A DNA stretch of 64,000 nt from Thermoanaerobaculia bacterium. GTDB lineage: Bacteria; Acidobacteriota; Thermoanaerobaculia; Multivoradales; UBA5704. The notes under the pieces were generated by a model. It did no database searches. It worked only from the letters and a program-made list of their open reading frames with translations, and was not told the origin of the DNA. This document shows, piece by piece, positions 13,631 to 60,678 of this stretch. Each line of letters opens with the position of its first letter. Position 1 is the stretch's first letter. Location: NCBI GenBank assembly GCA_038250865.1, contig JBBSBW010000008.1:6753-70752 (forward strand), written 5' to 3'. The position numbers were made by a program, and so were the translations under genes.

Positions 13631-13682
13631 CTCTTGGCTACTCCGTCGAGAGTTCGGGTAGTGGTTTCACGGCGGTCCGGGA

Positions 13683-15862
<2,180 letters not shown>

Positions 15863-30993: not shown

Positions 30994-32244
30994 TCATACC
31001 AGCTGTCCTACGGCGGCACCCGGGCCGACGATGGGGAATTCCAGATCGCAGGCGGGAAAAGAGATCGGGTTCAGCGCCCGGTCCTCGTGTACGTCGATCG
31101 CCTGGCCCAGGCTTTCGGCTCGCAGCCGGATCTGGCGATAGAGGTGATAGCGCAATGGTGCAAGCAGCGTGAAGTTCGAGGTGAGCTGGAGCAGGTGATC
31201 GCTGTCTTCGCCGGAGTAGACCCGGGTGAGGATTTCGCGCCGCTCCGTCGCCCACTGGCGGGAGACCTCGCCGCGTTCGACCCGCCGTTCGAGGATCAGC
31301 ATCTGGCGGGCGCGATTGATGATCTCGGGATGATGGTTGACCCCGAAGATCCGCGGCATCACCCCGGCGTCGTCGCGGTCGAATTCGTACATCGTGAGCG
31401 CATCGCCCTGCGGCCCGCCGACGCTTTCCGTCTCGTAGCCGATCGCCGTGCCCGACGCGGGGAAGTTTTCGGGGTCCGGGATCAGGTCGAACAGCCGGTT
31501 ATCCAGAATTCGCAGGCGCGGGCCGCCGAGCTGGTTGTAGAAGCGGCGAAACCAGGGGTGCTCGATCGCTTCGGGGGTCAGCATGTTTTCGAGCACCCCC
31601 GTGCTCTTGCCGCCCTTTTCGACCGACCGAAGCACCGGCCGGGCGATGCCCGACCAGTCGCACAGGACGCCGAACGTGTGGCAGACGGCGAGCATCGCGG
31701 CCGACCGGTCGGCGAGGATGCTGTCGAACAGATCGAAAGCCGGCGCGCGCCAGGAGGGATCTTCGCGCAGACCCTGGCTATGCTCGACCAGGCCGTCGTT
31801 CTGGCGCGGATCGATATGACCCGGGCCTCCCGTTCCAAGGTAGAGCGAAAACCGTCCGCCGGGCGGATCCGGCAGCCTGGCGCTGCCGCGCACGTCGAAC
31901 GAGATCGCCCGAACCTGAAGGCCGAGGCGCAGCAGCTCGGGCGACAGGTCGCAGCAGGCGTCGACCAGAGACGCGACCAGCGAATCGTGGCCGAGGTTCG
32001 GCCAGCCGTGGTTCATGTCGAGCACGGCGACGTCGATCGTCTTGGGTTCCGCTGCGGGAACGGGCGCGTTTCCTTCGACCCGGGCGTAGCGATAGCCCGA
32101 CTCCGAGCCGCGCGCGGGGCAGTCGGTGATGCAGAATTCTTTGCCGTAGCGTCGTTTGAGCTGGCAGTTGACAGGCATTCCGGCGTCCGGGTCTCTCGTA
32201 GAGTAGTTGCCGGACTCTATCGTCCGGCCCGGCGTGTCGTCCAC
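30994..32244 (-). CDS. Class-I glutamine amidotransferase-like protein (Cys-His triad motifs), start uncertain
   Basis: IDVAVLDMNHGWPNLGHD (beta1), MLAVCHTFGVL (nucleophile Cys elbow) and RIFGVNHHPEI (GATase1 His motif). It is upstream of and co-directional with the ATP-grasp gene with a 52-bp gap. Alternative start MPVNCQ at 32178. Confidence 0.4.
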   Translation of the reverse strand: MDDTPGRTIESGNYSTRDPDAGMPVNCQLKRRYGKEFCITDCPARGSESGYRYARVEGNAPVPAAEPKTIDVAVLDMNHGWPNLGHDSLVASLVDACCDLSPELLRLGLQVRAISFDVRGSARLPDPPGGRFSLYLGTGGPGHIDPRQNDGLVEHSQGLREDPSWRAPAFDLFDSILADRSAAMLAVCHTFGVLCDWSGIARPVLRSVEKGGKSTGVLENMLTPEAIEHPWFRRFYNQLGGPRLRILDNRLFDLIPDPENFPASGTAIGYETESVGGPQGDALTMYEFDRDDAGVMPRIFGVNHHPEIINRARQMLILERRVERGEVSRQWATERREILTRVYSGEDSDHLLQLTSNFTLLAPLRYHLYRQIRLRAESLGQAIDVHEDRALNPISFPACDLEFPIVGPGAAVGQLV

Positions 32245-35384: not shown

Positions 35385-38300
35385 ATGAACCGAATCACCC
35401 GGTTGTCCGCCGGGCTGGTGGTCTCCGTCGCAGCGTTGCTCGCGACCACCGCCTCAGCCCAGATGATGCAGCGCAATGATCCCGGTCCGCTCGGGCGTCT
35501 CGCGACGCTCAAAGAAGCCTTGAGTCCGCCCGCTTCTACCGCGCTGCTCGATCAGACTTCGGTCGGCCTCGCCGCGAACGTCACCAGCACCTGGGGCAGC
35601 TTCCTGGGTGAGGTCGGCGGTACCTGGGTCGGCTACGTCGACAAACGGAGCGGCTACCTGGAGTTCGCGGAAGGTTCCGGCTGGCCCTGGGTTCCGGGCA
35701 ACGGCAACAACCTCGCCAAGGCGGACATCGCGCAGTACCTGGCCGGTGCCGATCAGGTCGACATCGCAACGCTCGACCGGATCGCGCGCGCCAACCTGCC
35801 AACGGTCGCTCCGCTGCTCGGGGTGGCTGACGCCGACCTGAAGCTTTCCGCCGGCCGGTCGGGACGGATGTCGGACTACCTCTGGTACGTCGATTACGAC
35901 GTCTACCGCGGCGGATGGAAGATCGAAGGCGCCCGAGTGATGTTCCGGATCAACCATGGCAACGTGGTGCAGTTCGGTTCCGAGGGCGTGCCGCCGCCGG
36001 GAATCTCCGCCCCCTTCCCGCGCCTTTCGCGCGAAGAGGCGGTCCAGGCGGTTGCGAGCTACATCGGCGGATTCACCACGAGGGACGGTCTGGTCGATAC
36101 CGGCTCGCTCAAGATGATGACTCGCGCCAAGATCGATTCCACCGCCACGGACCACTTCCGGCTCGGCGATGGCTACGGCCTGCTGCCGGTCTGGGAACTC
36201 TCGTTCCGGCGCAAAGAGGTGGTCGGCACCTGGCGCGCCCGGGTCGATGCGATCACCGGCCAGATCATCGAGTTCGGCGACGTCAACGAGTATGCCCAAG
36301 CCAAGGGCGGCGTCGTGCTCGTCCAGCCTTCTCTCGGCGAGACCAGCAAGCCGGTTCCCTTCACCAACATCTCGACCGGCGGCTTCACCAACTCGGCCGG
36401 CGTCTATACGCCCGCCGGGGCGGCGACCTCGAGCTTGAACGGCCAGTACGTCCGTCCGGTCGACAGCTGCGGCGCGATCTCGCTCGCCGCGGACGGCATG
36501 AACAACTTCGATTTTGGTTCCTCGGCGGCGAGCGACTGCTCGACCCCGGGCTTCGGCGGCGCGGGCAACACCCGTTCGTCGCGCACCCAGTTCTATTGGG
36601 TCAACCGGGTGAAGGAAGTCGGCCGCGGCTGGCTCCCGGCGGTCGCCTGGCTCTCGGCCCAGCTGACCACGAACGTCAACCTGAACCAGACCTGCAACGC
36701 CTACTGGAACGGCTCGACGCTCAACTTCTTCAAGTCGGGCGGCGGTTGCGGCAACACCGGCGAGCTGCCGAGCGTTTCGTTGCATGAATACGGCCACGGC
36801 CTGGACAGCAACGACGGCACGGGCGCCCCGCCGGAGAACGGCAGCGGCGAAACGGTCGGCGACTGGACCGCCTCGCTCGCCACCCACCTCTCCTGCATCG
36901 GCTCGGGCTTCCTGGCTTCCAACTGCGGCGGTTACGGCAACGCCTGCACCTCCTGCACGGGAGTCCGCGACATCGACTGGGCGAAGCACACCGCAAATGT
37001 GGCCTCGACCCCGGCGAACTTCACCCAGACCACCTGCCCGCAGCCCAACGCCAACAACCCGAACTACGTCGGCCCCTGCGGCGCCAACGCGATCGCCAAC
37101 GCCACTCTCACCAAGAAGCGTGAAGGGCACTGCGAGTCGTACATCTCGTCGCAGGCGCTCTGGGACCTCGCGAACCGCGACCTGCCGAGCCCCGGCACCG
37201 GCGGCGCCTGGTCGATCTCCGACCGGCTCTGGTACCTGACCCGGGCGACCACCACCAGCTTCTTTACCTGCAACACGGTGCCCACCACCTGGACCTCCGA
37301 CGGTTGCGCGGCCGGCACCCTGTTCCGCACCTTCCGGGTGGCCGACGACGACGACGGCAACCTGGCGAACGGCACGCCGCACGGCGGCTCGATCTTCGCG
37401 GCGTTCGACCGCCACAACATCGCTTGCGCCTCCGATCCGGGGTCGAACACGACGTTTGCGGCCTGCACGATTCCCACCTCGCCGACGCTTTCGCTCACCC
37501 CGTCGAACAACACGATGCAACTTTCGTGGACCTCGTCGGGCGCCGGGATCGTCTACGACGTCTATAAGAACGAGCTCGACTGCAACGCGGGCTTCATCAA
37601 GATTGCCAACGACGTCGCGACGACCAGCTTCAACGACCCGAACGCCGCGAACTTCTTCAACTACAACTACCAGATCATCGCCCACCCGACCGGCACCGAG
37701 GCCTGCGGCGCGCCGCCGTCCAACTGCGCCACGGCAGCTCCGCTGCCCTGTACCGCTCCCTCCTCGCCGACGGTCGGCACGGAGACCGCTTCGGCGCCCA
37801 ACCAGATCACGGTGACCTGGTCCAACGGTGCGCCGGCTTCGGACTTCTTCAACGTCTACCGGGCGGTCGGCACCTGTGCCTCGCCGGGACCGTTCACCCA
37901 GGTTGCGAACATGTTGGCGGGAAGCCCTTACATCGACAACACCGTTTCGGGTAGCACGACCTACGCATACAAGATCTCAGGAACCGAGACGACGGGCGTT
38001 TGTGAATCGCCCCAGACCACCTGCGTCCAGGCCACCGCTACGGGCGTCTGCACCTTGCCGCCGACGTTCGCGGGCATCGCTTCGGCATCCAACGGTGCCA
38101 CGTCGCTCTGCTCGGTCGGCGTCTCCTGGGCCGCCGGAACCGCGCAGTGCGCGGGACCGGTCAGCTACAACGTCTACCGGTCGACCACCATGGGCTTCAC
38201 CCCGATGGTCGGCAACCGGATCGCCTCAGGCGTCTCCGGCACGTCGTTCAACGACAACACGCCGGGCATGCTCATGAACGGCACCACCTACTACTACAAG

Positions 38301-38993
38301 GTGCGGGCGGTCGATGCAGGCAACAGCTCGGAAGACACCAACACGGTCGAGAAGAGCGCCGTGCCGAGCGGGCCGATCGCTGTGGGCACCTTCACCGAGA
38401 CGTTCGAAGGGCCGATGGGCTTCGACAACGTGGGCTGGACGCACGCTGCTCTGTCCGGCGCCCCGGATTGGACCCTCTCGACCGCGCAGTCCCAGACCCC
38501 GACCCACTCGTGGAACTCGACCAGCATCGCCACGGTCTCGGATCGCGTTTTGGTCTCGCCGGCATTCATCGCCGCAGCCACCACGACGCTGTCGTTCTGG
38601 CACACATTCGCTCTGGAGCAGAGCGCCACGCCGACCACCTGTTTCGACGGCGGCACGCTCGAAACCTCGGTCGACGGCGGGATGACCTGGGTCGTCATTC
38701 CAGATGCGGCGATCACTGCCGGTCCGTTCATCGGCACGGTCTCCGCCTCGTTCGGTAGCCCGATCGCCGGCAAGAAGGCCTGGTGCGGCAACACGACGAT
38801 CGGTCCCTTCAGCCAGGTGACGGTCAACCTCGCCGCGTTCGCGGGCCAGACGATGAAGCTGCGTTGGCGCGAAGGGGATGACAGCAGCGTTGCCCGGATC
38901 GGCTGGTTCGTTGACTCTGTGGTTCTGACCAACGCCGGAACGGCGAGTGTCTGCGCCATGCCGGTCGCGTTGACCGGGTTCTCGGTCGAGTAG
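35385..38993 (+). CDS. Large secreted zinc metalloprotease (HEYGH motif, M36/fungalysin-like or M4-like) with two FN3-like domains and a C-terminal MAM-like domain
   Basis: Signal peptide MNRITRLSAGLVVSVAALLATTASAQ. Propeptide-like N-terminal region. Zinc site SVSLHEYGHGLDSNDG. C-terminal ~398 aa are paralogous to the C-terminus of the preceding gene. Confidence 0.75.
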   Translation: MNRITRLSAGLVVSVAALLATTASAQMMQRNDPGPLGRLATLKEALSPPASTALLDQTSVGLAANVTSTWGSFLGEVGGTWVGYVDKRSGYLEFAEGSGWPWVPGNGNNLAKADIAQYLAGADQVDIATLDRIARANLPTVAPLLGVADADLKLSAGRSGRMSDYLWYVDYDVYRGGWKIEGARVMFRINHGNVVQFGSEGVPPPGISAPFPRLSREEAVQAVASYIGGFTTRDGLVDTGSLKMMTRAKIDSTATDHFRLGDGYGLLPVWELSFRRKEVVGTWRARVDAITGQIIEFGDVNEYAQAKGGVVLVQPSLGETSKPVPFTNISTGGFTNSAGVYTPAGAATSSLNGQYVRPVDSCGAISLAADGMNNFDFGSSAASDCSTPGFGGAGNTRSSRTQFYWVNRVKEVGRGWLPAVAWLSAQLTTNVNLNQTCNAYWNGSTLNFFKSGGGCGNTGELPSVSLHEYGHGLDSNDGTGAPPENGSGETVGDWTASLATHLSCIGSGFLASNCGGYGNACTSCTGVRDIDWAKHTANVASTPANFTQTTCPQPNANNPNYVGPCGANAIANATLTKKREGHCESYISSQALWDLANRDLPSPGTGGAWSISDRLWYLTRATTTSFFTCNTVPTTWTSDGCAAGTLFRTFRVADDDDGNLANGTPHGGSIFAAFDRHNIACASDPGSNTTFAACTIPTSPTLSLTPSNNTMQLSWTSSGAGIVYDVYKNELDCNAGFIKIANDVATTSFNDPNAANFFNYNYQIIAHPTGTEACGAPPSNCATAAPLPCTAPSSPTVGTETASAPNQITVTWSNGAPASDFFNVYRAVGTCASPGPFTQVANMLAGSPYIDNTVSGSTTYAYKISGTETTGVCESPQTTCVQATATGVCTLPPTFAGIASASNGATSLCSVGVSWAAGTAQCAGPVSYNVYRSTTMGFTPMVGNRIASGVSGTSFNDNTPGMLMNGTTYYYKVRAVDAGNSSEDTNTVEKSAVPSGPIAVGTFTETFEGPMGFDNVGWTHAALSGAPDWTLSTAQSQTPTHSWNSTSIATVSDRVLVSPAFIAAATTTLSFWHTFALEQSATPTTCFDGGTLETSVDGGMTWVVIPDAAITAGPFIGTVSASFGSPIAGKKAWCGNTTIGPFSQVTVNLAAFAGQTMKLRWREGDDSSVARIGWFVDSVVLTNAGTASVCAMPVALTGFSVE

Positions 38994-39219: not shown

Positions 39220-40311
39220 ATGAGTGATCTTCCTTCCGAGCCTCGCGAGACCGCCCGTTCCGTACCCGGTATCGATATCGATTGGCTATTTGTTTCCAGC
39301 AGTTTGCGGGTCTCCAGCTGGCGCTGCCTCGCACAGAACCCAGAGCTTTCCGGCGATCGGAGCCAGCCCTGGCACGTTCTAGGTTTCACTCACGTCGGGG
39401 CCTTCGTGATGCAGGCCGAGGGGCGCGACATCGTGGTCGATGCCAATACCGTGATGTTGCACAGCCCGGGAATCCCCTACCGCACGGCCCATCCGTTCGG
39501 CGGTGGCGATCGCGGCAGCTCGCTGGTGCTTCGGCCGGGGGTGCTGCGCGAGATCGTCTGCCGTTACGACCCGGCGCGGGTCGAGAGCGATCCCGAGACG
39601 TTTCGCTTCCCGGCCGCTCACGCAATCTGTCCCCCGAAAGGCTACCTGCTACAGCGCCTGCTGTTTGAGCTGCTCTCCCGGCCGACCGGTGCAGATTTGA
39701 TGCGGATTGAAGAGACCGGCCTGTCGCTCGCGGAATCCGCGATCCGCGAGTGCTTCCGTCGGGTCGTGCCCTCCGAGAGGCAGGCGCGGGCGGCGACCGT
39801 GCGCCAGCACCGCGAGTGCGTCGAGGCGGCCAAGGGATTGCTGGTGGAGCGTTTCCGCGAGCCACTCCGGCTCGAAGACCTGGCGTTAAAGCTCAACGTT
39901 TCGGCCTGCCATCTGTCGCGCCTATTCAAGCGCGAGACCGGCCTGCCGATCCATCGTTATCTGAACCGCCTCCGTCTTCGCTGCGCTTTGGAGGAGCTGC
40001 CGGAGTGCGGCCGCGACCTCACCAGCCTCGCCTTCGACCTCGGCTTTTCAAGCCACAGCCACTTCTCGGCTAGCTTTGGCCAGGAGTTCGGGCTCACGCC
40101 GTCGCAGGTGCAGCAGATCGCCCATTCGGGCGACCTGCCCGAGAGCTTCGAGCGCCGCGGAAAGGCGCCTCAAGCTCCTGCGCGCTGGGCGTCCTCGGGG
40201 CGCGCGATGCTCTCGGCGCTCTCCGCCTCGCTTCCCGCGGCGACCGGGCCGAGGCGGGAGGCGACCGCCGCGTATTTGGTGTCGAGGGTGTCCCAGAGCG
40301 CCGCGATCTGA
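39220..40311 (+). CDS. AraC/XylS-family transcriptional regulator
   Basis: ATG at 39220 after an AT-richer promoter-like stretch. C-terminal dual HTH LEDLALKLNVSACHLSRLFKRETGLPIHRYLNRLRLRCALEEL...LTSLAFDLGFSSHSHFSASFGQEFGLTPSQ. The ORF runs to 40311, overlapping the convergent rdgC by about 140 nt, so the true stop may lie earlier through an undetected frameshift. Confidence 0.7.
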   Translation: MSDLPSEPRETARSVPGIDIDWLFVSSSLRVSSWRCLAQNPELSGDRSQPWHVLGFTHVGAFVMQAEGRDIVVDANTVMLHSPGIPYRTAHPFGGGDRGSSLVLRPGVLREIVCRYDPARVESDPETFRFPAAHAICPPKGYLLQRLLFELLSRPTGADLMRIEETGLSLAESAIRECFRRVVPSERQARAATVRQHRECVEAAKGLLVERFREPLRLEDLALKLNVSACHLSRLFKRETGLPIHRYLNRLRLRCALEELPECGRDLTSLAFDLGFSSHSHFSASFGQEFGLTPSQVQQIAHSGDLPESFERRGKAPQAPARWASSGRAMLSALSASLPAATGPRREATAAYLVSRVSQSAAI

Positions 40312-41165
40312 TCGAGGCGCAGGCCCAGCTCCTCGGTCCAGTGCTCGGCCTTGACCGCTTCGAGCTTCACGCCTGAGAGGCGGTACGACAGGGCGTCGAA
40401 TTTGAGCGGCACGGTGCCGACCAGGATTTTCGCGGCGAGCATCTCTGCGCCGTCGGCCACCAGGCGGTGCAGCTCGTTCAACACGCCGCCAGCGAGGTTA
40501 ACTTTCGCCTCGCGGGTGGCGAGCCGGACCGAGCCGGTCTCGGGCTCGATCAAGACCTCTGGATCTTCGAGCAGCGCGCGCAGGAACCGGCAGCCGAGCA
40601 CCGACTGGCCGGGCTCCTTCGGGATCACGATGTCGCTCGACTCGTCGGCCTCCGGCGCGTGATCGAGCCAGGGAGCTTTGAACTCGGTCGCCACCCCCGC
40701 TTGGCGCAGCAGAGCGAGCACTATGCCGAGAGCGGTCTTGGTGGCGCTGCCCACGAAGAGCAGCGAGTTGTCCAACACGCATTCGAGGATTCGCGTCCGT
40801 GGGCGTTGGCCGATCAGCAGCTCATGCTCGGCCAAGGCGCGTAGCTCTTTCCGCCGTTTGCCGCCGACATAGGGCCGGCCGGTCAGCTCGATCTCAGTTT
40901 TCACCAGGCCGGCCACCCGCTCGCGCACCGCCGTCGCGTCCGGGGTGCGTTTGTCGATCCGTACGCGGAACGCCCAGCGTCGAACCCCGACCTCGTACGG
41001 CGCGTCGGGCTCGAACGGCACGAAGCCGATCCGTTCGCGCACCTCTGAACCCGGCTCGATCTCACGAAACGGCGCGGCGTCGAAATCCGGCCCCTCCGGC
41101 GGCACGGCGGCATTGAAACGGGTGCAGGCAACGGCACCATAGAGTAGGCCCATCCGAATCCCCAA
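40170..41165 (-). CDS. rdgC: Recombination-associated protein RdgC
   Basis: About 330 aa. N-terminus LLYGAVACTRF aligns with RdgC (LMVYRL). The overall length and charge pattern match this nucleoid-associated family. The exact start is uncertain (41165 or 41153). Confidence 0.65.
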   Translation of the reverse strand: MGIRMGLLYGAVACTRFNAAVPPEGPDFDAAPFREIEPGSEVRERIGFVPFEPDAPYEVGVRRWAFRVRIDKRTPDATAVRERVAGLVKTEIELTGRPYVGGKRRKELRALAEHELLIGQRPRTRILECVLDNSLLFVGSATKTALGIVLALLRQAGVATEFKAPWLDHAPEADESSDIVIPKEPGQSVLGCRFLRALLEDPEVLIEPETGSVRLATREAKVNLAGGVLNELHRLVADGAEMLAAKILVGTVPLKFDALSYRLSGVKLEAVKAEHWTEELGLRLDQIAALWDTLDTKYAAVASRLGPVAAGSEAESAESIARPEDAQRAGA

Positions 41166-44242: not shown

Positions 44243-45379
44243 ATGTCGATCCCGTCCAGAAGGAGGTCCGCCGTGCGCAGATTCGTTCTCGGCCGCATTT
44301 TGGCCGCACCGGCCTTGGTTCTCCTCGCCGCCTCCTGCGGCCCCAAGGAGCCGCCGCCTCCCCCGAACGCCGCCGCTATCGCCCCGGCGCCCGCTGCGGC
44401 GAAGCTCGCCGATTCCTTGAAGGTCGTTTGCTGGGACGACTACATCACCCCGGCCGTCGGCCAGGACTTCCAGAAAGAATTCGGCGTCCGGCTCGACATC
44501 GAGTTCGTCAACAACACCGAAGAGGTGCTCGACCGGTTGCAGAAGGGGGAGGTGTGGGATGTCTGGACGCCGAGCGACTACGCGGTCCAGGCGGCGGCGG
44601 AGAAGAACCTGCTCGCGCCGCTCGACAAGGCGGCGATCCCCAACCTGACCAACGTCGGCCGGCGTTTCCAGAACGCGATCTACGACCAGCAATTCCGCTT
44701 CTCGGTGCCATTCTATTGGGGCACCACGGGGCTCGGCTACGACAAGACGGTCTACCCGACGCCGCCCGAGAGCTGGGGGTACATCTTCGATCCCAAGAAG
44801 CGGGCCAAGGTCGCCGGCCGGATCAGCATGCTCGACGACATGCGCGAAGCGTTCTCGATCGCCCTGATCTATTTGGGCTACGACCCGAACACCACCGACC
44901 CCACCGCGCTGCTCAAAGCCCGCGACCTGCTGATCGCCACCAAACCGGCGCTTTCCGGTTTTGACAGCGAAACCTACGAAGACAACCTCGGAGCTGGCAA
45001 AGTCGCCCTCACCCACGGCTGGAGTGGCGACCTTTCGCAGATCGTCGCCGAAGACCCGACCAAAGGCTACGCCTTGCCCAAAGAGGGCTTCATGCTCTGG
45101 GTCGACAACCTGGCCATCCCTGCCGGCAGCACGAAAAAAGAGACCGCGGCGGTGCTGATCAACTTCCTCCTCCGGCCGGAGGTCTCGGCAAAGCTCACCA
45201 ACTCGAACCGCAACCCCACCACGATCCCCGCCGCCCGTCCGATGATCGACCCGGCGGTGCTCAACAGCCCCTCCTACCAGCTGCCGGAGGATCGAACTTT
45301 CCACGTCATCAAGTACCTGGGAGCGGACACGGCGAAGCTGGAGAAGTACTGGGCGGAGATTGTGGGAACGAAAAAGTAG
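44243..45379 (+). CDS. Polyamine (spermidine/putrescine) ABC-transporter substrate-binding lipoprotein, PotD/PotF family; no cognate permease or ATPase in the window
   Basis: Lipobox LLAASCGP. VVCWDDY, VWDVWTPSDY, PFYWGTTGLGYDK motifs of the PotD/PotF family. Confidence 0.75.
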   Translation: MSIPSRRRSAVRRFVLGRILAAPALVLLAASCGPKEPPPPPNAAAIAPAPAAAKLADSLKVVCWDDYITPAVGQDFQKEFGVRLDIEFVNNTEEVLDRLQKGEVWDVWTPSDYAVQAAAEKNLLAPLDKAAIPNLTNVGRRFQNAIYDQQFRFSVPFYWGTTGLGYDKTVYPTPPESWGYIFDPKKRAKVAGRISMLDDMREAFSIALIYLGYDPNTTDPTALLKARDLLIATKPALSGFDSETYEDNLGAGKVALTHGWSGDLSQIVAEDPTKGYALPKEGFMLWVDNLAIPAGSTKKETAAVLINFLLRPEVSAKLTNSNRNPTTIPAARPMIDPAVLNSPSYQLPEDRTFHVIKYLGADTAKLEKYWAEIVGTKK

Positions 45380-45429: not shown

Positions 45430-45918
45430 TCACCCCCGCCGTCGGTGCAGCACCTCATCCAGCAGCCCTGGATTCTTGTGCAGCGAAACCAGCAGGTAGC
45501 ACCGCCAGCTGCGCCATTGGATCGGGATGACCACCGTCTTCATGTGGCGGGGGAGGGTGATCTCGTCGAGCTGGCCGCGCAGGACGATCGGGACGGAGAT
45601 CAGGAACTCGGAGCCGAAGAATTTACGGGCGTTTCCGGCGATGGTGTTGGCGATTTCGCCCACCAGGTCGGCTTGGTTGGGGGTGCCGTGGTCGGTTTCG
45701 CCGAAGCTTTGCAGTAGGCCGACCAGCGGTTCGCTCGCGGAGGTGAAGTAGACCGCCCCCCGGTGGCGACCCGAGATGCCGATCACACCGGTGTATTCGA
45801 GCGCCACCGACTCGTCGCCTTTCAGGTAGGGTGCGTCGACCGCGGCGGCCGAGCCGGTGACCCGTTCGAAATAGTGCAACGCCCCTTCGATGAAGACCTT
45901 GATCTCCTCGTCGGTCAT
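45430..45918 (-). CDS. cheX: CheX-like chemotaxis phosphatase
   Basis: ATG at 45916-45918: MTDEEIKVFIEGALHYFERVTGSAAAVDAPYL...GVIGISGRHRGAVYFT...ADLVGEIANTIAGNARKFFGSEF, the CheX/CheC signature (E..N..G). Stop taken from the ORF track. Confidence 0.7.
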   Translation of the reverse strand: MTDEEIKVFIEGALHYFERVTGSAAAVDAPYLKGDESVALEYTGVIGISGRHRGAVYFTSASEPLVGLLQSFGETDHGTPNQADLVGEIANTIAGNARKFFGSEFLISVPIVLRGQLDEITLPRHMKTVVIPIQWRSWRCYLLVSLHKNPGLLDEVLHRRRG

Positions 45919-46310
45919 TGCGGGGCCTCGATCAGATTGCGCAGCGCCTGATTCAGCTCCGATTCCGAAAACGGCTTGAACACGTACTCGTTCGCTCCGC
46001 GTTCGACCGCTTCGATCGCGGTTTCGGCGTCGCCCAGGGCCGAGATCACCATGATCCGGGTTTCGGGTTGGATCGCCATGATCTTCGAGACGCAGGTGAG
46101 GCCGTCCATTTCGGGCATCGTGATGTCCATGGTGACGAAGTCGGGGCGATGCTCGAGAAACATCTCGATCGCCTCGCGACCGTTGGCGGCCTGCAAGATC
46201 GTCGAGATTTTCGGCATTTTGAGTTGCCGCTCGATCGATCGGCGGACCACGCTTGAGTCGTCCACGATCAATAGTTTCAAGGGTAGTGCCTCCGTGGCGA
46301 CGTCGTTCAT
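45915..46310 (-). CDS. cheY: CheY-like single-domain response regulator
   Basis: LKLLIVDDSSVVRRSIERQL...PDFVTMDITMPEMDGLTCVSKI...RIMVISALGD...GANEYVFKPF: phospho-acceptor Asp and conserved Lys are present. It overlaps the cheX start by 4 nt. Confidence 0.85.
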   Translation of the reverse strand: MNDVATEALPLKLLIVDDSSVVRRSIERQLKMPKISTILQAANGREAIEMFLEHRPDFVTMDITMPEMDGLTCVSKIMAIQPETRIMVISALGDAETAIEAVERGANEYVFKPFSESELNQALRNLIEAPQ

Positions 46311-49201
46311 GAGGTCGGAACAACGATCCGCATCTCGCAGAAATGCCCGGGACGCTGGCGAATATGGATTTCGCCGCCGAGGCCCTCGATCTGACTCTTG
46401 ACGGCGGAAAGTCCGAAGCCGCGGCCCGCGTCCTCGGTAACTTGTTGTGCGGTCGAAAACCCGGGATAAAAGACCAGCGCATCCAGCTCGTCTGCCTTCC
46501 AGCGGTTCTGCTCGCGGTCGATCAGCCGGTCGAGCAGGCCGGGCTCGGCCTTCGCAAGTTCCTTGGCCTTGTCGGCGATCTTCCGGTAGTCGAACCCGCG
46601 GCCGTCGTCCCGGAAGACGACTTCGATCTTGCCGTCCGGGAGCGCCTTGGTGGTGAGCTTGATCTCCCCTTCCTCGGGCTTGCCGGCCGCCAGGCGTTCG
46701 GCCGGGGTCTCCAGGCCATGGACGAGCGAATTGCGCACCAGCTGGGCGAGCACGTTTTTGAGCCCCGCCTTCACCCGGAACGGCATGCGCACGCCGTCGG
46801 TCTCGGCGTGAAGTGCGACCTTCTTTCCCTCTTTCTTCGCCAGCTCGGCGATGAACCGCTCGACCACTCCGGCGAGCGCCTCGCCATCGCTCTTGCCCGG
46901 CTCGCCGGTCTTCTGTACCTCGCTGAACCGTTGGATCACGCCGCGGACCTCGGCCAGGCTGTCGACCAGCTCAGAGAGATCGAGCACCACCGGCAGGAAG
47001 TCGTTGCCTTCGAGCATCGGCCGGCGGCGCAGTTCGGCGAGCTTGCCCTCGAAGCGGTGGGCGCTCTGGGCGAAGTAGTCGATCCGCAGCATCGCCGCGG
47101 TGCCCTTGATCGTGTGGACGCTTTGAAAGACCTGATCGGCCAGGCGCCGGTAGACCGCCTGGCGCTCCGTCGGCCCTTGCCCCTCGGCGCGCCCCTCGCG
47201 CAGGATCGCGTTGGCCCGTTCCAGCTCGGAGTGGGCGCCTTCGATGAAATCGCGCAGCATCTCGGGCTCGACGTGCATGATCGACAGCAGCAGCTCGGCC
47301 TGGCGCTCCATCCGCTGTTTGGACTCGGCGAGCTCTTGGGCCAGCTCCACTTTCGTTGTGACGTCCGAGACGGTCACCATCGCCTGGCGCACCTCGTCCC
47401 CCTCGCGGACGCGTTCGAACGAGAAGGCGAGAAACTTCGGCTGGAGCTGGCCGTGCTCGTCCGGGAACGCCGCTTCGATCTCCTTCAGCGGGTTGATTTT
47501 GCCGACCACGCTGTCGGTCTTGCTCGGATTGAACAGGAGCCTCAAGAAGCGCACCGTGAGGTCGTGGGTCTTGGCCGGCGTGATTCGTCTGAGCAGCTCC
47601 AGGAAATCGCCGCCGCCGAGTTCCGACTCGCCCAGAATCCCGCGCAGCGCGGCAGAGTACTTGGGGGCGATCTTGAGGTCCGGATCGAGCAGGAACAGGC
47701 CCTCGGCGACACTGCCCATGATGGTGTCGGTCATCTGGAGACTGCGGGCCAGCTCGGCGTTGCTCGCCGTGAGGTTCATCGCGTTGTCGCGCAGCCGCCC
47801 GACCATCTGGTTGAACGAATCGGCGAGCACGCCCAGCTCGTCGCGCCCGGAAACCGGAGCCCGGGCGAGGAGATCGCCGTCCCGGACCCTCGTGGCGGTG
47901 GCGGACAGGTCGGTGACCGGCCGGATCAACCGGCGGCGGAGGAACAGGTAGGCTAGGGCGAGCACCGGCAGGATGATGCCGGCGAGAGCCAGCACGAGGA
48001 GCCGCGAAATGGTGGTCGCGACCCCTTCGGCCGCGGCGACCGGGATGACGTAGACCAGCTTCCAGTAGGAGTCGGGAACGTGGAACAGAAACGCCAAGGA
48101 GCGCTGGCCGCCGACCGGATCTTCCGCCATCTCGACGGTCGAGTAGAGGTTGCCCCGGTCCTGGCGCTGGCGGGCGAGCGGGTCGACTTGGATCGCCGAG
48201 ATGGTTTCGGCTTCCGGCCGCTCGATCGCGTAGCTCCCCTGGTCCATCTTCGCAGCGGCCGACGGATCGAATCCCCGCGTGGTCTTGGCGCGGGTGAGGA
48301 TGTCTTGATCCATCGCCGCCAGAGCGTTCGCGATAGGCAGGAAGCCGGGGCTTTTCTTCGCCAGAGCGTCGCCGGTGATGAAGTTCTCCGGCCGGTTGCC
48401 CTTCTCGTCGATGCTGCGGGTGGTGACCATTTCGAGCTTCGGGAAAGTCAAAAATTTGTTGTTCCGGTCGAGCAGGAAGACGTAGCCGCCATCCGATTGC
48501 TGCCGGGTCGCCACCAGGTCGGAGAGCCCGGAAAGTTCCAGGTCGACGGTCGCCGCACCGACGAATTGCCCCCCTTCAAAGACGCCCGAAGAGCAGGTGA
48601 CCTTGGGCGTCAAGGTGTAGGGGTCGGTGTAGGCGCCGCTCCAAAAGACGCTGCCCGGCGCCCGAAACTTGAGCGGCACGTACCATTCCTCGTTGTGGTA
48701 CCCGGGGCCGAACGTCTCGTTGTATCCGTTGCTGGGTTGAAGCTGCCCCCGTCCGTTGCGCCCCCAAAAGAAGCTCCGGCGATCGATCCCCGGGGTAAAC
48801 GTCTGCGGTTCGGGCCAGTAGCCGCCCCCCGCGATGCCTCGGTCGCCCCCCAGGTTGAGCAGCGGCGGCAGGCTCTGGCTAAACGTCGCCTCGTCTTTGG
48901 GCAGCTCTTCGGCCACCGTGGCGATCGTCCGCGCCAGGGTCGAGATCTCGTGGGAGCGGCGTTCCAGCTCGGCCACCCGGCGGTTCCCCGCCTCTTCGAT
49001 CCGGCGCTTCGTCTCCGCGATCACCAGGCGTTTGCCGTAGGTGTTCATGATCAGGACGATGCTGCCGAGCAGAAGCGCGAACAGGACGATCAGCCACAGG
49101 ATCGACTCCAGCACCAAGCGGTCCCGAATGCGTCGCCGCGGTGGGACCGTAGCAGGTGCCGGGGAGGCGGCGACCTCGGGCGGGGTGGGGCTGTCGCTCA
49201 T
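46307..49201 (-). CDS. Membrane-bound sensor histidine kinase of CheA class: TM, periplasmic Cache-like domain, TM, HAMP, linker, Hpt (P1-like, HTIKGTAAM), HATPase_c; no CheW-like domain
   Basis: 964 aa. Two hydrophobic segments flank a ~320-aa extracytoplasmic region. HAMP (LIRPVTDLSATATRVRDGDLL...SFNQMVGRLRD). Hpt motif VFQSVHTIKGTAAMLRIDYFAQSAHRFE. ATP-binding LAQLVRNSLVHGLE...DDGRGFD...GRGFGLSAVKSQIEGLGGEI. It overlaps the cheY start by 4 nt. Confidence 0.8.
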   Translation of the reverse strand: MSDSPTPPEVAASPAPATVPPRRRIRDRLVLESILWLIVLFALLLGSIVLIMNTYGKRLVIAETKRRIEEAGNRRVAELERRSHEISTLARTIATVAEELPKDEATFSQSLPPLLNLGGDRGIAGGGYWPEPQTFTPGIDRRSFFWGRNGRGQLQPSNGYNETFGPGYHNEEWYVPLKFRAPGSVFWSGAYTDPYTLTPKVTCSSGVFEGGQFVGAATVDLELSGLSDLVATRQQSDGGYVFLLDRNNKFLTFPKLEMVTTRSIDEKGNRPENFITGDALAKKSPGFLPIANALAAMDQDILTRAKTTRGFDPSAAAKMDQGSYAIERPEAETISAIQVDPLARQRQDRGNLYSTVEMAEDPVGGQRSLAFLFHVPDSYWKLVYVIPVAAAEGVATTISRLLVLALAGIILPVLALAYLFLRRRLIRPVTDLSATATRVRDGDLLARAPVSGRDELGVLADSFNQMVGRLRDNAMNLTASNAELARSLQMTDTIMGSVAEGLFLLDPDLKIAPKYSAALRGILGESELGGGDFLELLRRITPAKTHDLTVRFLRLLFNPSKTDSVVGKINPLKEIEAAFPDEHGQLQPKFLAFSFERVREGDEVRQAMVTVSDVTTKVELAQELAESKQRMERQAELLLSIMHVEPEMLRDFIEGAHSELERANAILREGRAEGQGPTERQAVYRRLADQVFQSVHTIKGTAAMLRIDYFAQSAHRFEGKLAELRRRPMLEGNDFLPVVLDLSELVDSLAEVRGVIQRFSEVQKTGEPGKSDGEALAGVVERFIAELAKKEGKKVALHAETDGVRMPFRVKAGLKNVLAQLVRNSLVHGLETPAERLAAGKPEEGEIKLTTKALPDGKIEVVFRDDGRGFDYRKIADKAKELAKAEPGLLDRLIDREQNRWKADELDALVFYPGFSTAQQVTEDAGRGFGLSAVKSQIEGLGGEIHIRQRPGHFCEMRIVVPTS

Positions 49202-59505: not shown

Positions 59506-60678
59506 TCAGTTGTGCTCGATCTCGAACGGTGAGGCCGAACCGAGCAGGTCGTTTTCGGGCGCCAGCTCGATCGACTCTTCCATCTGCTCGCGCGCGGCGT
59601 CCGAGGTGAACTGCACGCCCTGGATCTTGAGTTTGAACTCGTCCGGGTTCGTAGCGCGGCGGAGCGCCTCTTCGAGCGAGATCAGGCCGCCTTTGTAGAG
59701 CTGGAACAGCGATTGGTCGAACGTCTGCATGCCGTACTGGCTGGTGCCCCCGGCGATCTGCTCGCGGATGAACTTGGTCTTCTCTTTGTTCTCGATGCAG
59801 TCGCGGATGTACGGGGTCGAGATCATCACCTCGACCGCCGGAACCCGGCCGATGCCGTCGGCGCGGGGTATCAGGCGGAGCGAGACGACCGCCTTCAAGA
59901 CCGCGGAAAGCTGAATGCGGATCTGCTTTTGATGGTGCGGCGGGAAGACCGAGATGATGCGGTTGATCGTCTCGGTGGCGTCCAGGGTGTGGAGCGTCGA
60001 GAAGACCAAATGGCCCGTCTCGGCCGCGAGCAGCGCGGTCTCGATCGTCTCGTAGTCGCGCATTTCGCCGACCAGAATGACGTCCGGATCTTGGCGCAGG
60101 GCGGCGCGCAGGGCGGGCGAAAAGGCCCGTGTGTCGACGTCGATCTCGCGCTGGTTGACGATCGATTTCTTGTCGCGGTGGAGGAATTCGATCGGATCCT
60201 CGATCGTCATGATGTGCTCGGAGCGACCGGAGTTGATCGAGTCGAGCATCGCGGCGAGCGTCGTCGATTTGCCTGAGCCGGTGGTTCCCGTGCAGAGGAT
60301 CAGACCGCGGCGCTCCTCGCAGATCTTTTCGAGCACGGGAGGCAGCATCAGCTCGCGCATGGTCTGGATGCGCGCCGGGATGACGCGGAGCACCAGGCCG
60401 ACCGCGCCGCGCTGTTGGAAGACGTTGCAGCGGAAACGGCCGAGGCCGGGCACGGAATACGCGATGTCGAGCTCGTACTCTTCCTTGAAGCGCTGCTTCT
60501 GGCGCGCGTTCATGATCGAGAACGCCATCGCGATGGTGTCCTCTTGGAGCAGGCGCTTCAAATCGGCAAGGCCGATCAGCTCGCCGTCGACGCGGATGAC
60601 CGGATGGCTGCCGACCTTCAGGTGAAGGTCGGAGGCCTTGCGTTCGACCGCGATCTTGAGCAGGTCGTTGATGTTCAT
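59506..60678 (-). CDS. pilT: Type IV pilus twitching-motility ATPase PilT
   Basis: MNINDLLKIAVERKASDLHLKVGSHPVIRVDGEL...GLILCTGTTGSGKSTTLAAMLDSIN (Walker A)...DVILVGEMRDYETIETALLAAETGHLVFSTLHT, a textbook PilT. Confidence 0.9.
   Translation of the reverse strand: MNINDLLKIAVERKASDLHLKVGSHPVIRVDGELIGLADLKRLLQEDTIAMAFSIMNARQKQRFKEEYELDIAYSVPGLGRFRCNVFQQRGAVGLVLRVIPARIQTMRELMLPPVLEKICEERRGLILCTGTTGSGKSTTLAAMLDSINSGRSEHIMTIEDPIEFLHRDKKSIVNQREIDVDTRAFSPALRAALRQDPDVILVGEMRDYETIETALLAAETGHLVFSTLHTLDATETINRIISVFPPHHQKQIRIQLSAVLKAVVSLRLIPRADGIGRVPAVEVMISTPYIRDCIENKEKTKFIREQIAGGTSQYGMQTFDQSLFQLYKGGLISLEEALRRATNPDEFKLKIQGVQFTSDAAREQMEESIELAPENDLLGSASPFEIEHN

What the first reader, a model, noticed from the sequence alone, without database searches (positions are those of the whole stretch)
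45430..49201. Minimal chemotaxis-like module: membrane Cache-HAMP-Hpt-HATPase kinase, CheY and CheX, with no CheW or MCP
Three translationally coupled genes (4-nt overlaps). The kinase combines an extracellular Cache-type sensor and HAMP (features of chemoreceptors) with a CheA-type Hpt (HTIKG) and ATPase domain, but lacks P3/P5 (CheW-like) domains. This is effectively a receptor-kinase fusion that would bypass receptor arrays. Together with a CheY receiver and a CheX phosphatase, it may control motility (pilT is nearby) or another output directly.
Basis: partly seen in the sequence, partly recalled or inferred. Interest (0 to 1): 0.55.

Follow-up and report, generated by a model that had tools for sequence, protein, structure and literature searches.

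The report
Sensor kinase with CheA-type core (HKIII)
This is a real three-gene signalling operon: a membrane sensor kinase built on a CheA-type Hpt plus ATPase core, a CheY-like regulator and a CheX phosphatase. It belongs to the "class III histidine kinase" family described in 2017, so it is a new member rather than a new kind, probably tuned to small amines.

Summary
Three minus-strand genes with ATGA overlaps encode:
- a 964-aa TM–dCache–TM–HAMP–(PAS)–Hpt–CheA-type ATPase kinase with no DHp, P3 or P5;
- a 131-aa CheY-like receiver;
- a 162-aa CheX.

The window has no MCP or CheW. A PilT-family gene lies about 10 kb away.

The architecture is not new. It meets every feature I recall of class III histidine kinases (HKIII; Adebali et al. 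2017, J Bacteriol). I could verify the reference but could not read the paper.

An exhaustive search shows a large family:
- 517 clusters match at E≤1e-30.
- In 149 of the top 150, the Hpt–ATPase module ends the protein.
- None of 69 scanned has CheW, H-kinase_dim or HisKA.
- RR and CheX are adjacent in 4 of 6 kinases sampled outside the window's own sensor subfamily (4 of 4 sampled with other sensor types).

What I add:
- An unannotated PAS fold abuts Hpt in 140 of 150 relatives and is the likely dimerisation element.
- The Cache pocket keeps 7 of 8 ethanolamine-contacting residues of Vibrio cholerae CqsR.
- A PotD/PotF-like lipoprotein gene, or a whole potABCD-like operon, accompanies the operon in 12 of 14 acidobacterial loci, in three arrangements.

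Likely function: amine-responsive phosphorylation of a CheY-like protein, reset by CheX. The output is unknown; type IV pili are the published guess.

The parts
46307..49201 (-). HKIII-type sensor histidine kinase, 964 aa (stop codon included)
   Evidence: ORF; Pfam dCache_1, HAMP, Hpt and HATPase_c; AF2 model; same gene call on L081.
48008..49045 (-). Periplasmic CqsR-like double-Cache sensor (about residues 53-398), flanked by TM1 (about 29-52) and TM2 (about 399-421)
   Evidence: Pfam dCache_1. DSSP of the AF2 model. Foldseek hits to 3lib and 3li8 double-PDC sensors. PDB 9nia CqsR, E 8e-21, with 7 of 8 ligand residues identical: W129, F145, W173, Y191, D193, T218, D220; Y160 replaces W138.
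47786..47944 (-). HAMP domain (residues 420-472)
   Evidence: Pfam PF00672, 2.4e-16, full-length match 1-53 of 53; two helices 388-440 and 455-473 in the model.
47363..47716 (-). Cytoplasmic PAS-fold domain (residues 496-613) ending in a DVT motif, followed by a linker helix (615-641). Not recognised by Pfam.
   Evidence: No Pfam hit. The AF2 sub-model has pLDDT 84 with 2 strands, 4 helices, 3 strands, then a long helix. Foldseek best matches are dimeric short-LOV and FixL PAS domains, E about 3e-6. An HMM of this region hits 140 of 150 family representatives directly before Hpt.
46916..47266 (-). Hpt four-helix bundle (residues 646-762). Phospho-acceptor H696 sits in HTIKG (codon 47114..47116).
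   Evidence: Pfam Hpt 4.4e-8. Four helices 646-669, 677-705, 708-726 and 732-762. H696, K699 and G700 are invariant in A1 and at least 90% conserved in A2. Weak alignment to E. coli CheA P1 around His48.
46310..46888 (-). CheA-type (P4-like) ATP-binding catalytic domain (residues 772-964). It ends the protein, so there is no P5.
   Evidence: NCBIfam CheA models match only here. PDB sequence hits are exclusively CheA P4, E 7e-26. Foldseek TM 0.8-0.88, rmsd 2.4-3.9 A to T. maritima CheA P4. N, G1, F and G2 box residues N824, D865-G867, F911, G914, G926, G928 and G930 are conserved.
45915..46310 (-). CheY-like single-domain response regulator, 131 aa (D17, D18, D62, S90, Y109, K112)
   Evidence: Pfam Response_reg 1.6e-29. 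The best PDB matches are CheY proteins, including T. maritima CheY (1tmy, 9.1e-26). ATGA overlap with the kinase stop.
45430..45918 (-). CheX-family phosphatase, 162 aa, with the D84-x3-E88-x2-N91 motif
   Evidence: Pfam PF13690 2e-16. PDB matches 3h2d, 6vpw and 3hm4 (CheX/CheC-like) with the DLVGEIxN motif aligned. ATGA overlap with the receiver stop.
44243..45379 (+). PotD/PotF-family solute-binding lipoprotein with no transporter genes beside it, convergent with cheX. Candidate fourth component (co-sensor); the link is inferred from conserved neighbourhood only.
   Evidence: Pfam SBP_bac_8, SBP_bac_6 and SBP_bac_1. NCBIfam PotD and PotF hits fall below the equivalog cutoffs. Best PDB match is the P. 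aeruginosa polyamine-binding protein 3ttl, 2.5e-48. Lipobox LAASC. Adjacent to the operon in 12 of 14 acidobacterial loci in three arrangements.
59506..60678 (-). PilT/PilU-family type IVa pilus ATPase. Context only; it is not part of the operon.
   Evidence: Pfam T2SSE 3e-44; TIGR01420 pilT_fam 477.7 bits, cutoff 319.1.

Best explanation
This is a class III histidine kinase (HKIII) two-component system from a Thermoanaerobaculia (Acidobacteriota) genome.

Shown:
- The kinase is a two-pass membrane protein whose periplasmic double-Cache domain closely resembles the ethanolamine-binding domain of V. cholerae CqsR.
- Its cytoplasmic part runs HAMP, a PAS fold ending in DVT, a linker helix, an Hpt four-helix bundle carrying H696, and a CheA-type ATP-binding domain that ends the protein.
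- It has no DHp, no CheA P3 dimerisation hairpin and no P5/CheW-like domain.
- The next two genes, translationally coupled, encode a CheY-like receiver and a CheX-family phosphatase. This trio recurs in relatives that carry quite different sensors.

Inferred mechanism:
1. The protein dimerises through its transmembrane helices, HAMP, coiled-coil and PAS parts, which stand in for the missing dimerisation domain.
2. A small primary amine or 2-amino alcohol binds the membrane-distal Cache pocket, anchored on D220. A neighbouring PotD/PotF-like lipoprotein may assist or modulate this.
3. The resulting conformational change passes through HAMP, PAS and the linker helix, and alters how readily the ATPase domain phosphorylates H696 on the adjoining Hpt bundle.
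4. The phosphoryl group moves to D62 of the CheY-like protein.
5. CheX (E88, N91) hydrolyses CheY~P, so the signal follows the stimulus quickly without methylation-based adaptation and without a receptor array.
6. The receiver has no output domain, so it must act by binding another protein. The published proposal for HKIII is the type IV pilus machinery, and a PilT-family gene is in the window. The target is not established.

My rough likelihoods:
- HKIII membership: 0.9
- Phosphotransfer route: 0.75
- Amine-type ligand: 0.5
- Binding protein as co-sensor: 0.35
- Type IV pilus output: 0.3
For: Architecture.

Family breadth and defining absences:
- phmmer of the Hpt+ATPase module against 1.84 billion representatives gave 517 clusters at E<=1e-30.
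- In the top 150, the tail after the ATPase has a median of 7 aa, with only one above 60.
- The Hpt-to-ATPase gap has a median of 18 aa.
- Of 69 members scanned with Pfam, 69 have HATPase_c, 66 have Hpt, and none has CheW, H-kinase_dim or HisKA. Their sensors vary: PilJ 15, HAMP 13, dCache_1 7, plus PAS, GAF, Reg_prop, MASE6 and CHASE4.

Partners:
- Kinase, RR and CheX are syntenic with overlapping junctions in L001-L005 and L007-L009 and in L091, L092 and L093.
- The same trio occurs with unrelated sensors in P0128, P0144 and P0133, and as RR-CheX-kinase in P0149.
- The receiver is closest to CheY proteins. The CheX catalytic motif is conserved.

Sensor:
- CqsR match at E 8e-21 with 7 of 8 ligand contacts identical. 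Those residues are invariant or at least 90% conserved among 23 homologues.
- SBP linkage.

Literature:
- The HKIII reference exists. A citing paper says these kinases also occur in genomes lacking chemotaxis genes and always co-occur with a type IV pilus marker gene.
- CheA proper always has Hpt, dimerisation, HATPase_c and CheW domains (PMC10542144).
Against: - The HKIII paper could not be read. Its definition rests on my memory of the abstract plus one second-hand sentence.
- No biochemical step was tested. Dimerisation through PAS and HAMP is inferred from monomer models only.
- The ligand inference rests on pocket similarity to one solved protein. One lid residue differs (W138 to Y160), and this Cache domain is about 120 aa longer than the CqsR construct.
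- In L007 the binding-protein gene is the last gene of a complete ABC-transporter operon. L009 has the same SBP position and type, but its upstream genes were not scanned. Adjacency there could be incidental.
- Two of 14 loci (L005, L008) have no such gene in the flanks.
- Two lineages (L010, L094) lack CheX next to the receiver. The Bdellovibrionota homologues have neither partner adjacent.
- pilT lies 10 kb away with unrelated genes between. The rest of the genome could not be examined for flagellar or chemotaxis genes.
Confidence: 0.6

Rival explanations
1. The biochemical module is as described, but the output is not type IV pili. The CheY-like protein might act on a flagellar switch, on another motility or adhesion machine, or on an enzyme. 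Alternatively it might serve mainly as a phosphate sink, while the Hpt domain feeds other receivers elsewhere in the genome.
For: - The receiver's closest solved relatives are flagellar CheY proteins.
- One HKIII locus with another sensor has a FliG_C gene about 3 kb away and a nucleotide cyclase gene immediately downstream.
- No locus sampled places pilus genes inside the operon. One has a T2SSF gene about 4.6 kb upstream.
- Hpt domains commonly serve several receivers (established knowledge of phosphorelays).
Against: - The only published proposal links HKIII to pilT-containing genomes, including genomes without chemotaxis genes.
- A PilT-family gene is present in this window.
- Two related loci carry a small PatA_N-domain gene right after cheX. 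From memory, that domain occurs in pilus-motor-binding regulators of cyanobacteria.
Confidence: 0.3
2. The Cache domain senses its ligand directly. The PotD/PotF-like gene next door is only a transport or metabolic neighbour with no role in signalling.
For: - CqsR binds ethanolamine directly without a binding protein (PMC12410723).
- The pocket residues are conserved here.
- In L007 the binding protein belongs to a full ABC-transporter operon.
- L005 and L008 lack it.
- 67 Cache-domain relatives with other outputs (L014-L080), and the Bdellovibrionota HKIII homologues (L011-L013, L082, L083), have no such neighbour.
Against: - The gene stays beside the operon in 12 of 14 loci, down to 45% kinase identity.
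- Every other flanking gene changes across these loci. The binding-protein gene itself changes position and strand: convergent downstream in 8 loci, and co-directional 37-56 nt upstream in L091 and L093.
- In those 10 loci the flanking genes examined (window, L091-L094) include no permease or ATPase genes beside it; the flanks of L001-L004 and L010 were not scanned.
Confidence: 0.4
3. The kinase is a truncated or decaying CheA left over from a degraded chemotaxis operon.
For: The ATPase domain is CheA-like, and CheY and CheX are chemotaxis-type partners.
Against: - The same C-terminal end (median 7-aa tail) occurs in 149 of 150 diverse family representatives.
- The catalytic and phospho-acceptor residues are invariant.
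- The protein carries two transmembrane helices and sensor domains that CheA never has.
- Orthologues are conserved at 45-93% identity across many MAGs.
Confidence: 0.02
4. It is an ordinary class I sensor kinase whose DHp domain was misread as Hpt.
For: The overall plan (Cache, HAMP, PAS, helical domain, ATPase) resembles classical kinases. Foldseek aligns the PAS-to-ATPase part loosely with LOV histidine kinases, with low TM of about 0.13 against the query.
Against: - No HisKA hit at E<=1.
- The His lies in an HTIKG motif on the second helix of a four-helix bundle, not in an H-box on a two-helix hairpin.
- The Pfam Hpt score is above cutoff.
- The ATPase matches only CheA among solved structures.
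Confidence: 0.02

Closest known systems
Class III histidine kinases (HKIII) with a single-domain response regulator and CheX (Adebali, Petukh, Reznik, Tishkov, Upadhyay, Zhulin 2017, J Bacteriol 199:e00218-17)
   Same: A sensor domain sits in the same polypeptide as an Hpt domain and a CheA-type ATPase. There is no dimerisation domain and no CheW-like domain. The adjacent genes encode a single-domain receiver and CheX. A pilT gene is in the genome neighbourhood. The system does not depend on MCP or CheW genes locally.
   Different: - The host is an uncultured Thermoanaerobaculia lineage, and the sensor is a CqsR-like double-Cache domain.
- No soluble chemoreceptor gene is present. As I recall, the paper reports one in many, not all, systems.
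- A PotD/PotF-like lipoprotein gene is a recurrent neighbour.
- I could not check whether the paper already lists Cache-type or acidobacterial members, or the PAS fold in front of Hpt.
Canonical chemotaxis core: CheA (HKII), CheW, MCP arrays, CheY, and CheX or CheC phosphatases
   Same: The phosphoryl route runs ATP to His on an Hpt bundle to Asp on a CheY-type receiver, followed by CheX-type dephosphorylation. The ATPase fold and sequence are those of CheA P4.
   Different: There is no P2, P3 or P5. No CheW, MCP, CheR or CheB is in the window. The kinase carries its own transmembrane sensor, so no receptor array and no methylation-based adaptation are implied. It fails two of the four core CheA domains defined in PMC10542144.
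Vibrio cholerae quorum-sensing receptor CqsR (periplasmic Cache domain binding ethanolamine; PDB 9nia, 9nit, 9niv; PMC12410723)
   Same: The membrane-distal Cache module is homologous (E 8e-21), including the WPEP signature. It keeps 7 of 8 ligand-contacting residues, among them the essential platform Asp (D198 in CqsR, D220 here).
   Different: From memory, CqsR is a classical hybrid kinase (DHp, CA and receiver) feeding LuxU and LuxO. Here the same type of sensor drives an Hpt plus CheA-type ATPase core. W138 is Tyr here. The periplasmic region here is about 345 aa, against 217 aa in the CqsR construct.
Sensors that depend on a binding protein, such as NspS-MbaA (a PotD-like polyamine sensor with a membrane c-di-GMP enzyme) and LuxP-LuxQ in Vibrio (recalled from memory, not tested here)
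   Same: A periplasmic PotD-like binding protein is encoded without transporter genes next to a two-pass membrane signalling protein that has a periplasmic domain and HAMP.
   Different: No interaction has been shown here, and the output is a kinase rather than a c-di-GMP enzyme. Vibrionaceae loci that share this Cache domain have no adjacent PotD-like gene, so this is an analogy and not homology of the pair.

Membership tests
HKIII (class III histidine kinase system) | Catalytic ATP-binding domain of the CheA (HKII) type | tested here: met
   NCBIfam CheA models score 118 and 101 bits on residues 778-963, against about 20 bits for classical-kinase models on the same region. PDB sequence hits are only CheA P4. 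Foldseek TM 0.8-0.88 to CheA P4.
HKIII (class III histidine kinase system) | Phospho-acceptor His on an Hpt domain in the same polypeptide, directly upstream of the ATPase | tested here: met
   Pfam Hpt is above cutoff. H696, K699 and G700 are invariant. A four-helix bundle spans 646-762 and the ATPase starts at 772.
HKIII (class III histidine kinase system) | No dimerisation domain (neither HisKA/DHp nor CheA H-kinase_dim/P3) | tested here: met
   No such Pfam hit at E<=1. Only about 9 residues separate Hpt from the ATPase in the model. The family-wide median gap is 18 aa, and 0 of 69 members have these domains.
HKIII (class III histidine kinase system) | Sensory input domain(s) in the kinase itself | tested here: met
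   dCache_1, HAMP and a PAS fold.
HKIII (class III histidine kinase system) | Partner genes: a single-domain response regulator and a CheX phosphatase | tested here: met
   Both are adjacent and translationally coupled. The arrangement is conserved in orthologues and in relatives with other sensors.
HKIII (class III histidine kinase system) | Unorthodox soluble chemoreceptor in the system ('in many instances', so not obligatory; recalled from the abstract) | tested here: not met
   No MCP signalling domain in the 64-kb window, and none in the sampled HKIII loci with adjacent RR and CheX. The whole genome was not examined.
HKIII (class III histidine kinase system) | Genome also contains pilT | tested here: met
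   PilT/PilU family ATPase at 59506..60678.
CheA (HKII) | Four core domains present in all CheA: Hpt, H-kinase_dim (P3), HATPase_c and CheW-like (P5) (PMC10542144) | tested here: not met
   Hpt and HATPase_c are present, but P3 and P5 are absent. The core definition was read.
Classical (class I) sensor histidine kinase | DHp/HisKA dimerisation and phospho-acceptor hairpin with an H-box directly before the ATPase | tested here: not met
   No HisKA hit. The region before the ATPase is an Hpt four-helix bundle.
CheY-type single-domain receiver | Receiver fold with the acidic pocket, phospho-Asp, Thr/Ser, aromatic switch residue and Lys, and no output domain | tested here: met
   D17, D18, D62, S90, Y109 and K112 read from the sequence. 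Pfam 1.6e-29. The best PDB matches are CheY proteins at about 1e-25. Binding to a motor or pilus target was not tested.
CheX phosphatase (CheC/CheX/FliY superfamily) | CheX fold with the catalytic D/S-x3-E-x2-N motif | tested here: met
   PF13690 60 bits against a cutoff of 27. D84-LVG-E88-IA-N91 aligns with the same motif in solved CheX and CheC-like proteins. Enzymatic activity was not tested.
CqsR-like amine / 2-amino-alcohol-binding dCache domain | Ligand-contacting residues W105, F123, W138, W151, Y169, D171, T196 and D198 of CqsR | tested here: inconclusive
   7 of 8 are identical (W129, F145, W173, Y191, D193, T218, D220) and W138 becomes Y160. All are conserved among homologues. Ligand binding itself cannot be tested with these tools.
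PotD/PotF polyamine-binding proteins | Score above the NCBIfam equivalog cutoffs for PotD or PotF | tested here: not met
   146 and 142 bits against cutoffs of 582 and 636. It is a family member (SpuE 3ttl, 2.5e-48) but not an orthologue. The W-D-D-Y, G-W-S-G-D and L-W-V-D motifs align with the polyamine-binding protein.

The most novel reading that the evidence does not exclude
In Thermoanaerobaculia the HKIII core has been wired into a four-component amine or polyamine sensing pathway. A PotD/PotF-like lipoprotein encoded without transporter genes would act as co-receptor for a CqsR-type Cache sensor. The family-specific PAS fold, not a DHp or P3, would dimerise and gate the Hpt-ATPase pair. 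The CheY-like product would steer type IV pilus activity, giving array-free, methylation-free taxis on surfaces toward or away from amines.
Probability: 0.15. Interest if true: 0.55.

Novelty: new member of a known kind. Interest (0 to 1): 0.33.

Why it matters
HKIII systems are widespread: 517 clusters at 50% identity match this module at E<=1e-30. As far as I could find, nobody has characterised one experimentally. Only one paper in the searchable library cites the defining study.

This member makes the family more tractable in three ways:
- It has a concrete ligand hypothesis: ethanolamine-like amines, by homology of the pocket to CqsR.
- It has clear point-mutation controls: D220N, H696A, D62A, and E88A or N91A.
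- It has a possible accessory binding protein.

A full in vitro reconstitution from ligand to dephosphorylation is therefore feasible. Such a reconstitution would show how a CheA-type catalytic domain can be regulated without P3, P5, CheW or receptor arrays.

As a discovery it is incremental. The architecture, its partners and the pilus hypothesis are already in the literature.

Tried and rejected
1. Reading the HKIII paper by DOI, PMC id and PubMed id failed because it is not held. Searches for 'HKIII' with chemotaxis terms found nothing. Only the reference and one citing sentence were recovered.
2. A profile search with the family alignment A2 in the word-indexed database returned only the same acidobacterial group plus ordinary CheA and ChpA proteins. 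It gave no useful names or taxa for the wider family.
3. I considered that the Cache domain plus binding protein might be a homologue of the Vibrio NspS-MbaA pair. None of the 67 Cache-domain relatives with other outputs (L014-L080), including the two Vibrionaceae loci L056 and L059, has an adjacent PotD-like gene. I kept it only as an analogy.
4. I considered the quaternary-amine dCache_1AM motif (PMC10589655). I could not map the motif from the text, and the CqsR comparison was more direct, so I dropped it.
5. The sigma-70 promoter and intrinsic-terminator scan of the operon borders gave counts near the shuffle expectation and nothing usable.
6. I looked for the small PatA_N gene seen after cheX in L091 and L093. 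It is absent from the window and from the other loci.
7. tblastn with the E. coli Tsr signalling domain and CheW found nothing in the window.
8. Truncated CheA and a misread DHp were considered and rejected (see the rival explanations).

Full report
**1. What is in the sequence**

Three genes lie head to tail on the minus strand:
- a 964-aa kinase at 46307..49201
- a 131-aa receiver at 45915..46310
- a 162-aa CheX at 45430..45918

Each junction is an ATGA overlap. The kinase start is preceded by AAGGAGAGG. The operon is bounded by a divergent GNAT acetyltransferase gene and a convergent PotD-like binding-protein gene.

Pfam finds dCache_1, HAMP, Hpt and HATPase_c in the kinase, Response_reg in the second gene and CheX in the third. 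All score above the curated cutoffs. No HisKA, H-kinase_dim or CheW hit appears even at E<=1. NCBIfam CheA models match only the last 190 residues. An identical public contig carries the same gene calls and Pfam families.

The organism is an uncultured Thermoanaerobaculia/Acidobacteriota bacterium. Contigs with 91-94% identical kinases carry those names.

**2. Anatomy of the kinase**

An AlphaFold2 model built on 23 homologues (mean pLDDT 79) gives this order:

| Residues | Element |
|---|---|
| about 29-52 | TM1 |
| about 53-398 | periplasmic double-Cache domain |
| about 399-421 | TM2 |
| 420-472 | HAMP |
| 472-495 | low-confidence linker |
| 496-613 | alpha/beta domain ending in D-V-T |
| 615-641 | linker helix |
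| 646-762 | four-helix bundle, H696 on the second helix |
| about 763-771 | nine-residue linker |
| 772-964 | ATP-binding domain, which ends the protein |

Evidence for the individual elements:
- **PAS fold.** The 496-613 domain has no Pfam hit. Modelled alone (pLDDT 84), it is a PAS fold with an N-terminal cap and a long C-terminal helix. Its best structural matches are dimeric short-LOV and FixL PAS domains.
- **ATPase.** Among solved structures it matches only CheA P4 by sequence (E 7e-26). By fold it gives TM 0.8-0.88 and rmsd 2.4-3.9 A.
- **Conserved residues.** H696-x-x-K-G and the N, G1, F and G2 box residues are invariant or nearly so.
- **What is missing.** There is no room for a CheA P3 hairpin, and nothing follows the ATPase.

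**3. This is a large, already described family**

I searched the Hpt+ATPase module (residues 640-964) with phmmer against 1.84 billion cluster representatives. This gave 517 clusters at E<=1e-30.

Among the top 150:
- The module is contiguous and C-terminal. The tail after the ATPase has a median of 7 aa, and only one exceeds 60.
- The Hpt-to-ATPase gap has a median of 18 aa.
- The N-terminal part ranges from nothing to about 1300 aa.

A Pfam scan of 69 of them found HATPase_c in 69 and Hpt in 66. None had CheW, H-kinase_dim or HisKA. Their sensors differ widely: PilJ, HAMP, dCache_1, PAS, GAF, Reg_prop/Y_Y_Y, MASE6 and CHASE4.

This matches what I recall of 'class III histidine kinases' (Adebali et al. 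2017):
- sensory domains plus a CheA-like kinase domain
- no dimerisation domain
- a single-domain regulator and CheX as partners
- often a soluble chemoreceptor
- presence in genomes without chemotaxis genes
- constant co-occurrence with pilT

I could not read the paper. Its reference is verified. A citing paper repeats the last two points.

By contrast, a survey of CheA states that Hpt, dimerisation, HATPase_c and CheW domains occur in every CheA (PMC10542144). This protein is therefore not a CheA.

**4. Partners**

The receiver's closest solved relatives are CheY proteins (about 1e-25). It has D17, D18, D62, S90, Y109 and K112. CheX aligns with solved CheX and CheC-like proteins, including the D-x3-E-x2-N catalytic motif (D84, E88, N91).

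How the trio is distributed:
- Kinase, receiver and CheX are syntenic, with overlapping junctions, in eight fetched acidobacterial loci at 54-91% kinase identity. They are also syntenic in L091, L092 and L093.
- The same trio flanks family members with quite different sensors: P0128, P0144 and P0133 as kinase-RR-CheX, and P0149 as RR-CheX-kinase.
- Exceptions: L010 and L094 have the receiver but no CheX. A soluble ROK-PAS member and the Bdellovibrionota Cache-type homologues (Oligoflexus, Silvanigrellaceae) have neither partner adjacent.

**5. New points about this member**

(a) **The PAS fold is a family feature.** An HMM of residues 496-642 hits 140 of the 150 top representatives, directly in front of Hpt (median gap 1 residue). 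The ten without it are short proteins of 244-375 aa, plus one giant protein. So the conserved core is PAS, linker helix, Hpt and ATPase. I do not know whether the 2017 paper noted this.

(b) **The sensor is CqsR-like.** The Cache domain matches the V. cholerae CqsR periplasmic domain (PDB 9nia) at E 8e-21. I mapped the residues that paper reports as contacting ethanolamine:

| CqsR | This kinase |
|---|---|
| W105 | W129 |
| F123 | F145 |
| W151 | W173 |
| Y169 | Y191 |
| D171 | D193 |
| T196 | T218 |
| D198 | D220 |
| W138 | Y160 (substituted) |

All are invariant or at least 90% conserved in the 23-sequence alignment. D198N abolishes binding and signalling in CqsR. A small primary amine or 2-amino alcohol is therefore the best ligand guess.

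(c) **A binding-protein gene travels with the operon.** The convergent neighbour at 44243..45379 is a PotD/PotF-family lipoprotein (lipobox LAASC). Its best solved match is the P. aeruginosa polyamine-binding protein 3ttl (2.5e-48). It scores below the PotD and PotF equivalog cutoffs, and no permease or ATPase genes sit beside it.

A related gene lies next to the operon in 12 of 14 distinct acidobacterial loci:
- Convergent downstream in the window and in L001-L004, L010, L092 and L094.
- Co-directional, 37-56 nt upstream, in L091 and L093.
- As the last gene of a potABCD-like operon directly upstream in L007. L009 has the same SBP type in the same position, but its upstream genes were not scanned.

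The other flanking genes are conserved only among close relatives. The gene is absent beside 67 Cache-domain relatives with other outputs (L014-L080) and beside the Bdellovibrionota HKIII homologues. This pattern suggests a functional link to amine or polyamine physiology, possibly co-sensing. It does not prove one.

**6. How it most likely works**

Shown: the domain order, the conserved catalytic and acceptor residues, the missing P3, P5 and DHp, and the conserved partners.

Inferred:
1. The protein dimerises through its transmembrane, HAMP, coiled-coil and PAS parts.
2. Ligand occupancy of the distal Cache pocket is relayed through HAMP, PAS and the linker helix.
3. This sets the rate at which the ATPase phosphorylates H696.
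4. The phosphoryl group passes to D62 of the CheY-like protein.
5. CheX removes it, giving a fast signal without methylation-based adaptation.

The receiver has no output domain, so it must bind a target. The published proposal is the type IV pilus machinery. Here a PilT-family gene lies 10 kb away, and the intervening genes scanned are unrelated to pili or signalling, so local evidence is weak. A small PatA_N-domain gene follows cheX in L091 and L093. From memory, that domain occurs in regulators that bind the pilus motor in cyanobacteria. This is a hint, not a test.

**7. Verdict**

Its broad reading, a sensor-equipped CheA-like kinase that needs no receptor array, is sound. Calling it a chemoreceptor fusion is not justified, and the kind is already known.

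I file it as a new member of a known kind (HKIII). It adds three useful leads: a family-wide PAS fold, a CqsR-like amine pocket and a recurrent PotD-like neighbour.

Interest is modest. A specialist would not be surprised by the architecture. The family is, however, experimentally untouched as far as I could find, and this member offers a concrete ligand and clean mutational controls.

**8. Limits**

- The genome outside the window was not available.
- No step of the mechanism was tested.
- The HKIII definition rests partly on memory.
- The structural inferences come from monomer predictions.

Noticed in passing
window 47363..47716 (-), kinase residues 496-613: A PAS-fold domain that Pfam does not recognise sits directly before Hpt. 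An HMM of it hits 140 of the 150 best family representatives. The conserved core of these kinases is therefore PAS, helix, Hpt and ATPase, not just Hpt and ATPase.
   Followed up: yes
window 44243..45379 (+); L091 4885-5964; L092 8665-9771; L093 1-960; L094 4981-5901; L007 5345-9594: A PotD/PotF-like lipoprotein gene, or a whole potABCD-like operon in L007 (probably also L009), accompanies the Cache-type HKIII operon in 12 of 14 acidobacterial loci. It does so in three different arrangements, while the other neighbours change.
   Followed up: yes
L091 9862-10092; L093 4849-5094: A 76-81-aa protein consisting only of a PatA_N (PATAN) domain is encoded right after cheX in two related loci. It is absent from the window and the other loci. 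This is a possible lead to the output partner.
   Followed up: partly
L010 12832-14247; L094 4600-5901: Two lineages (kinase 45% identical) keep the kinase, the receiver and the convergent binding-protein gene but have no CheX gene after the receiver.
   Followed up: partly
L013 9980-12838 (Oligoflexus tunisiensis Shr3); L011; L012; L082: Bdellovibrionota have full-length Cache-HAMP-PAS-Hpt-ATPase homologues (31-33% identity) with no adjacent receiver, CheX or binding-protein gene. O. tunisiensis is a cultured strain and could serve for genetics.
   Followed up: partly
window about 48155..48373 (-), kinase residues about 277-349: A conserved, confidently modelled block of five helices lies between the distal and proximal Cache modules. 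The periplasmic region is about 345 aa, against 217 aa in the CqsR construct. Its role is unknown; it might be a docking surface.
   Followed up: no
protein P0220 (2330 aa): One family representative continues for about 1240 aa after the ATPase domain, with roughly ten further HxxKG-containing Hpt-like repeats. It is the single exception to the rule that the ATPase ends the protein.
   Followed up: no
window 32317..35229 (+) and 35385..38993 (+): Two very large adjacent ORFs (970 and 1202 aa, GC3 0.88) have signal-peptide-like N-termini and essentially no Pfam match, apart from a weak Reelin subrepeat-B hit in the first.
   Followed up: no
window 8358..15862: A tyrosine/homogentisate catabolism cluster (fumarylacetoacetase, a homogentisate dioxygenase-like cupin, and a 4-hydroxyphenylpyruvate dioxygenase-like protein) sits next to an ORF at 14942..15862 that looked LysR-like from its N-terminal sequence (not scanned). 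An AMP-binding enzyme gene is also in the cluster.
   Followed up: no
window 40170..41165 (-), 30994..32244 (-), 5325..6710 (-): Three sizeable high-GC3 ORFs (331, 416 and 461 aa) have no Pfam family at E<=1e-3 to 1e-4.
   Followed up: no
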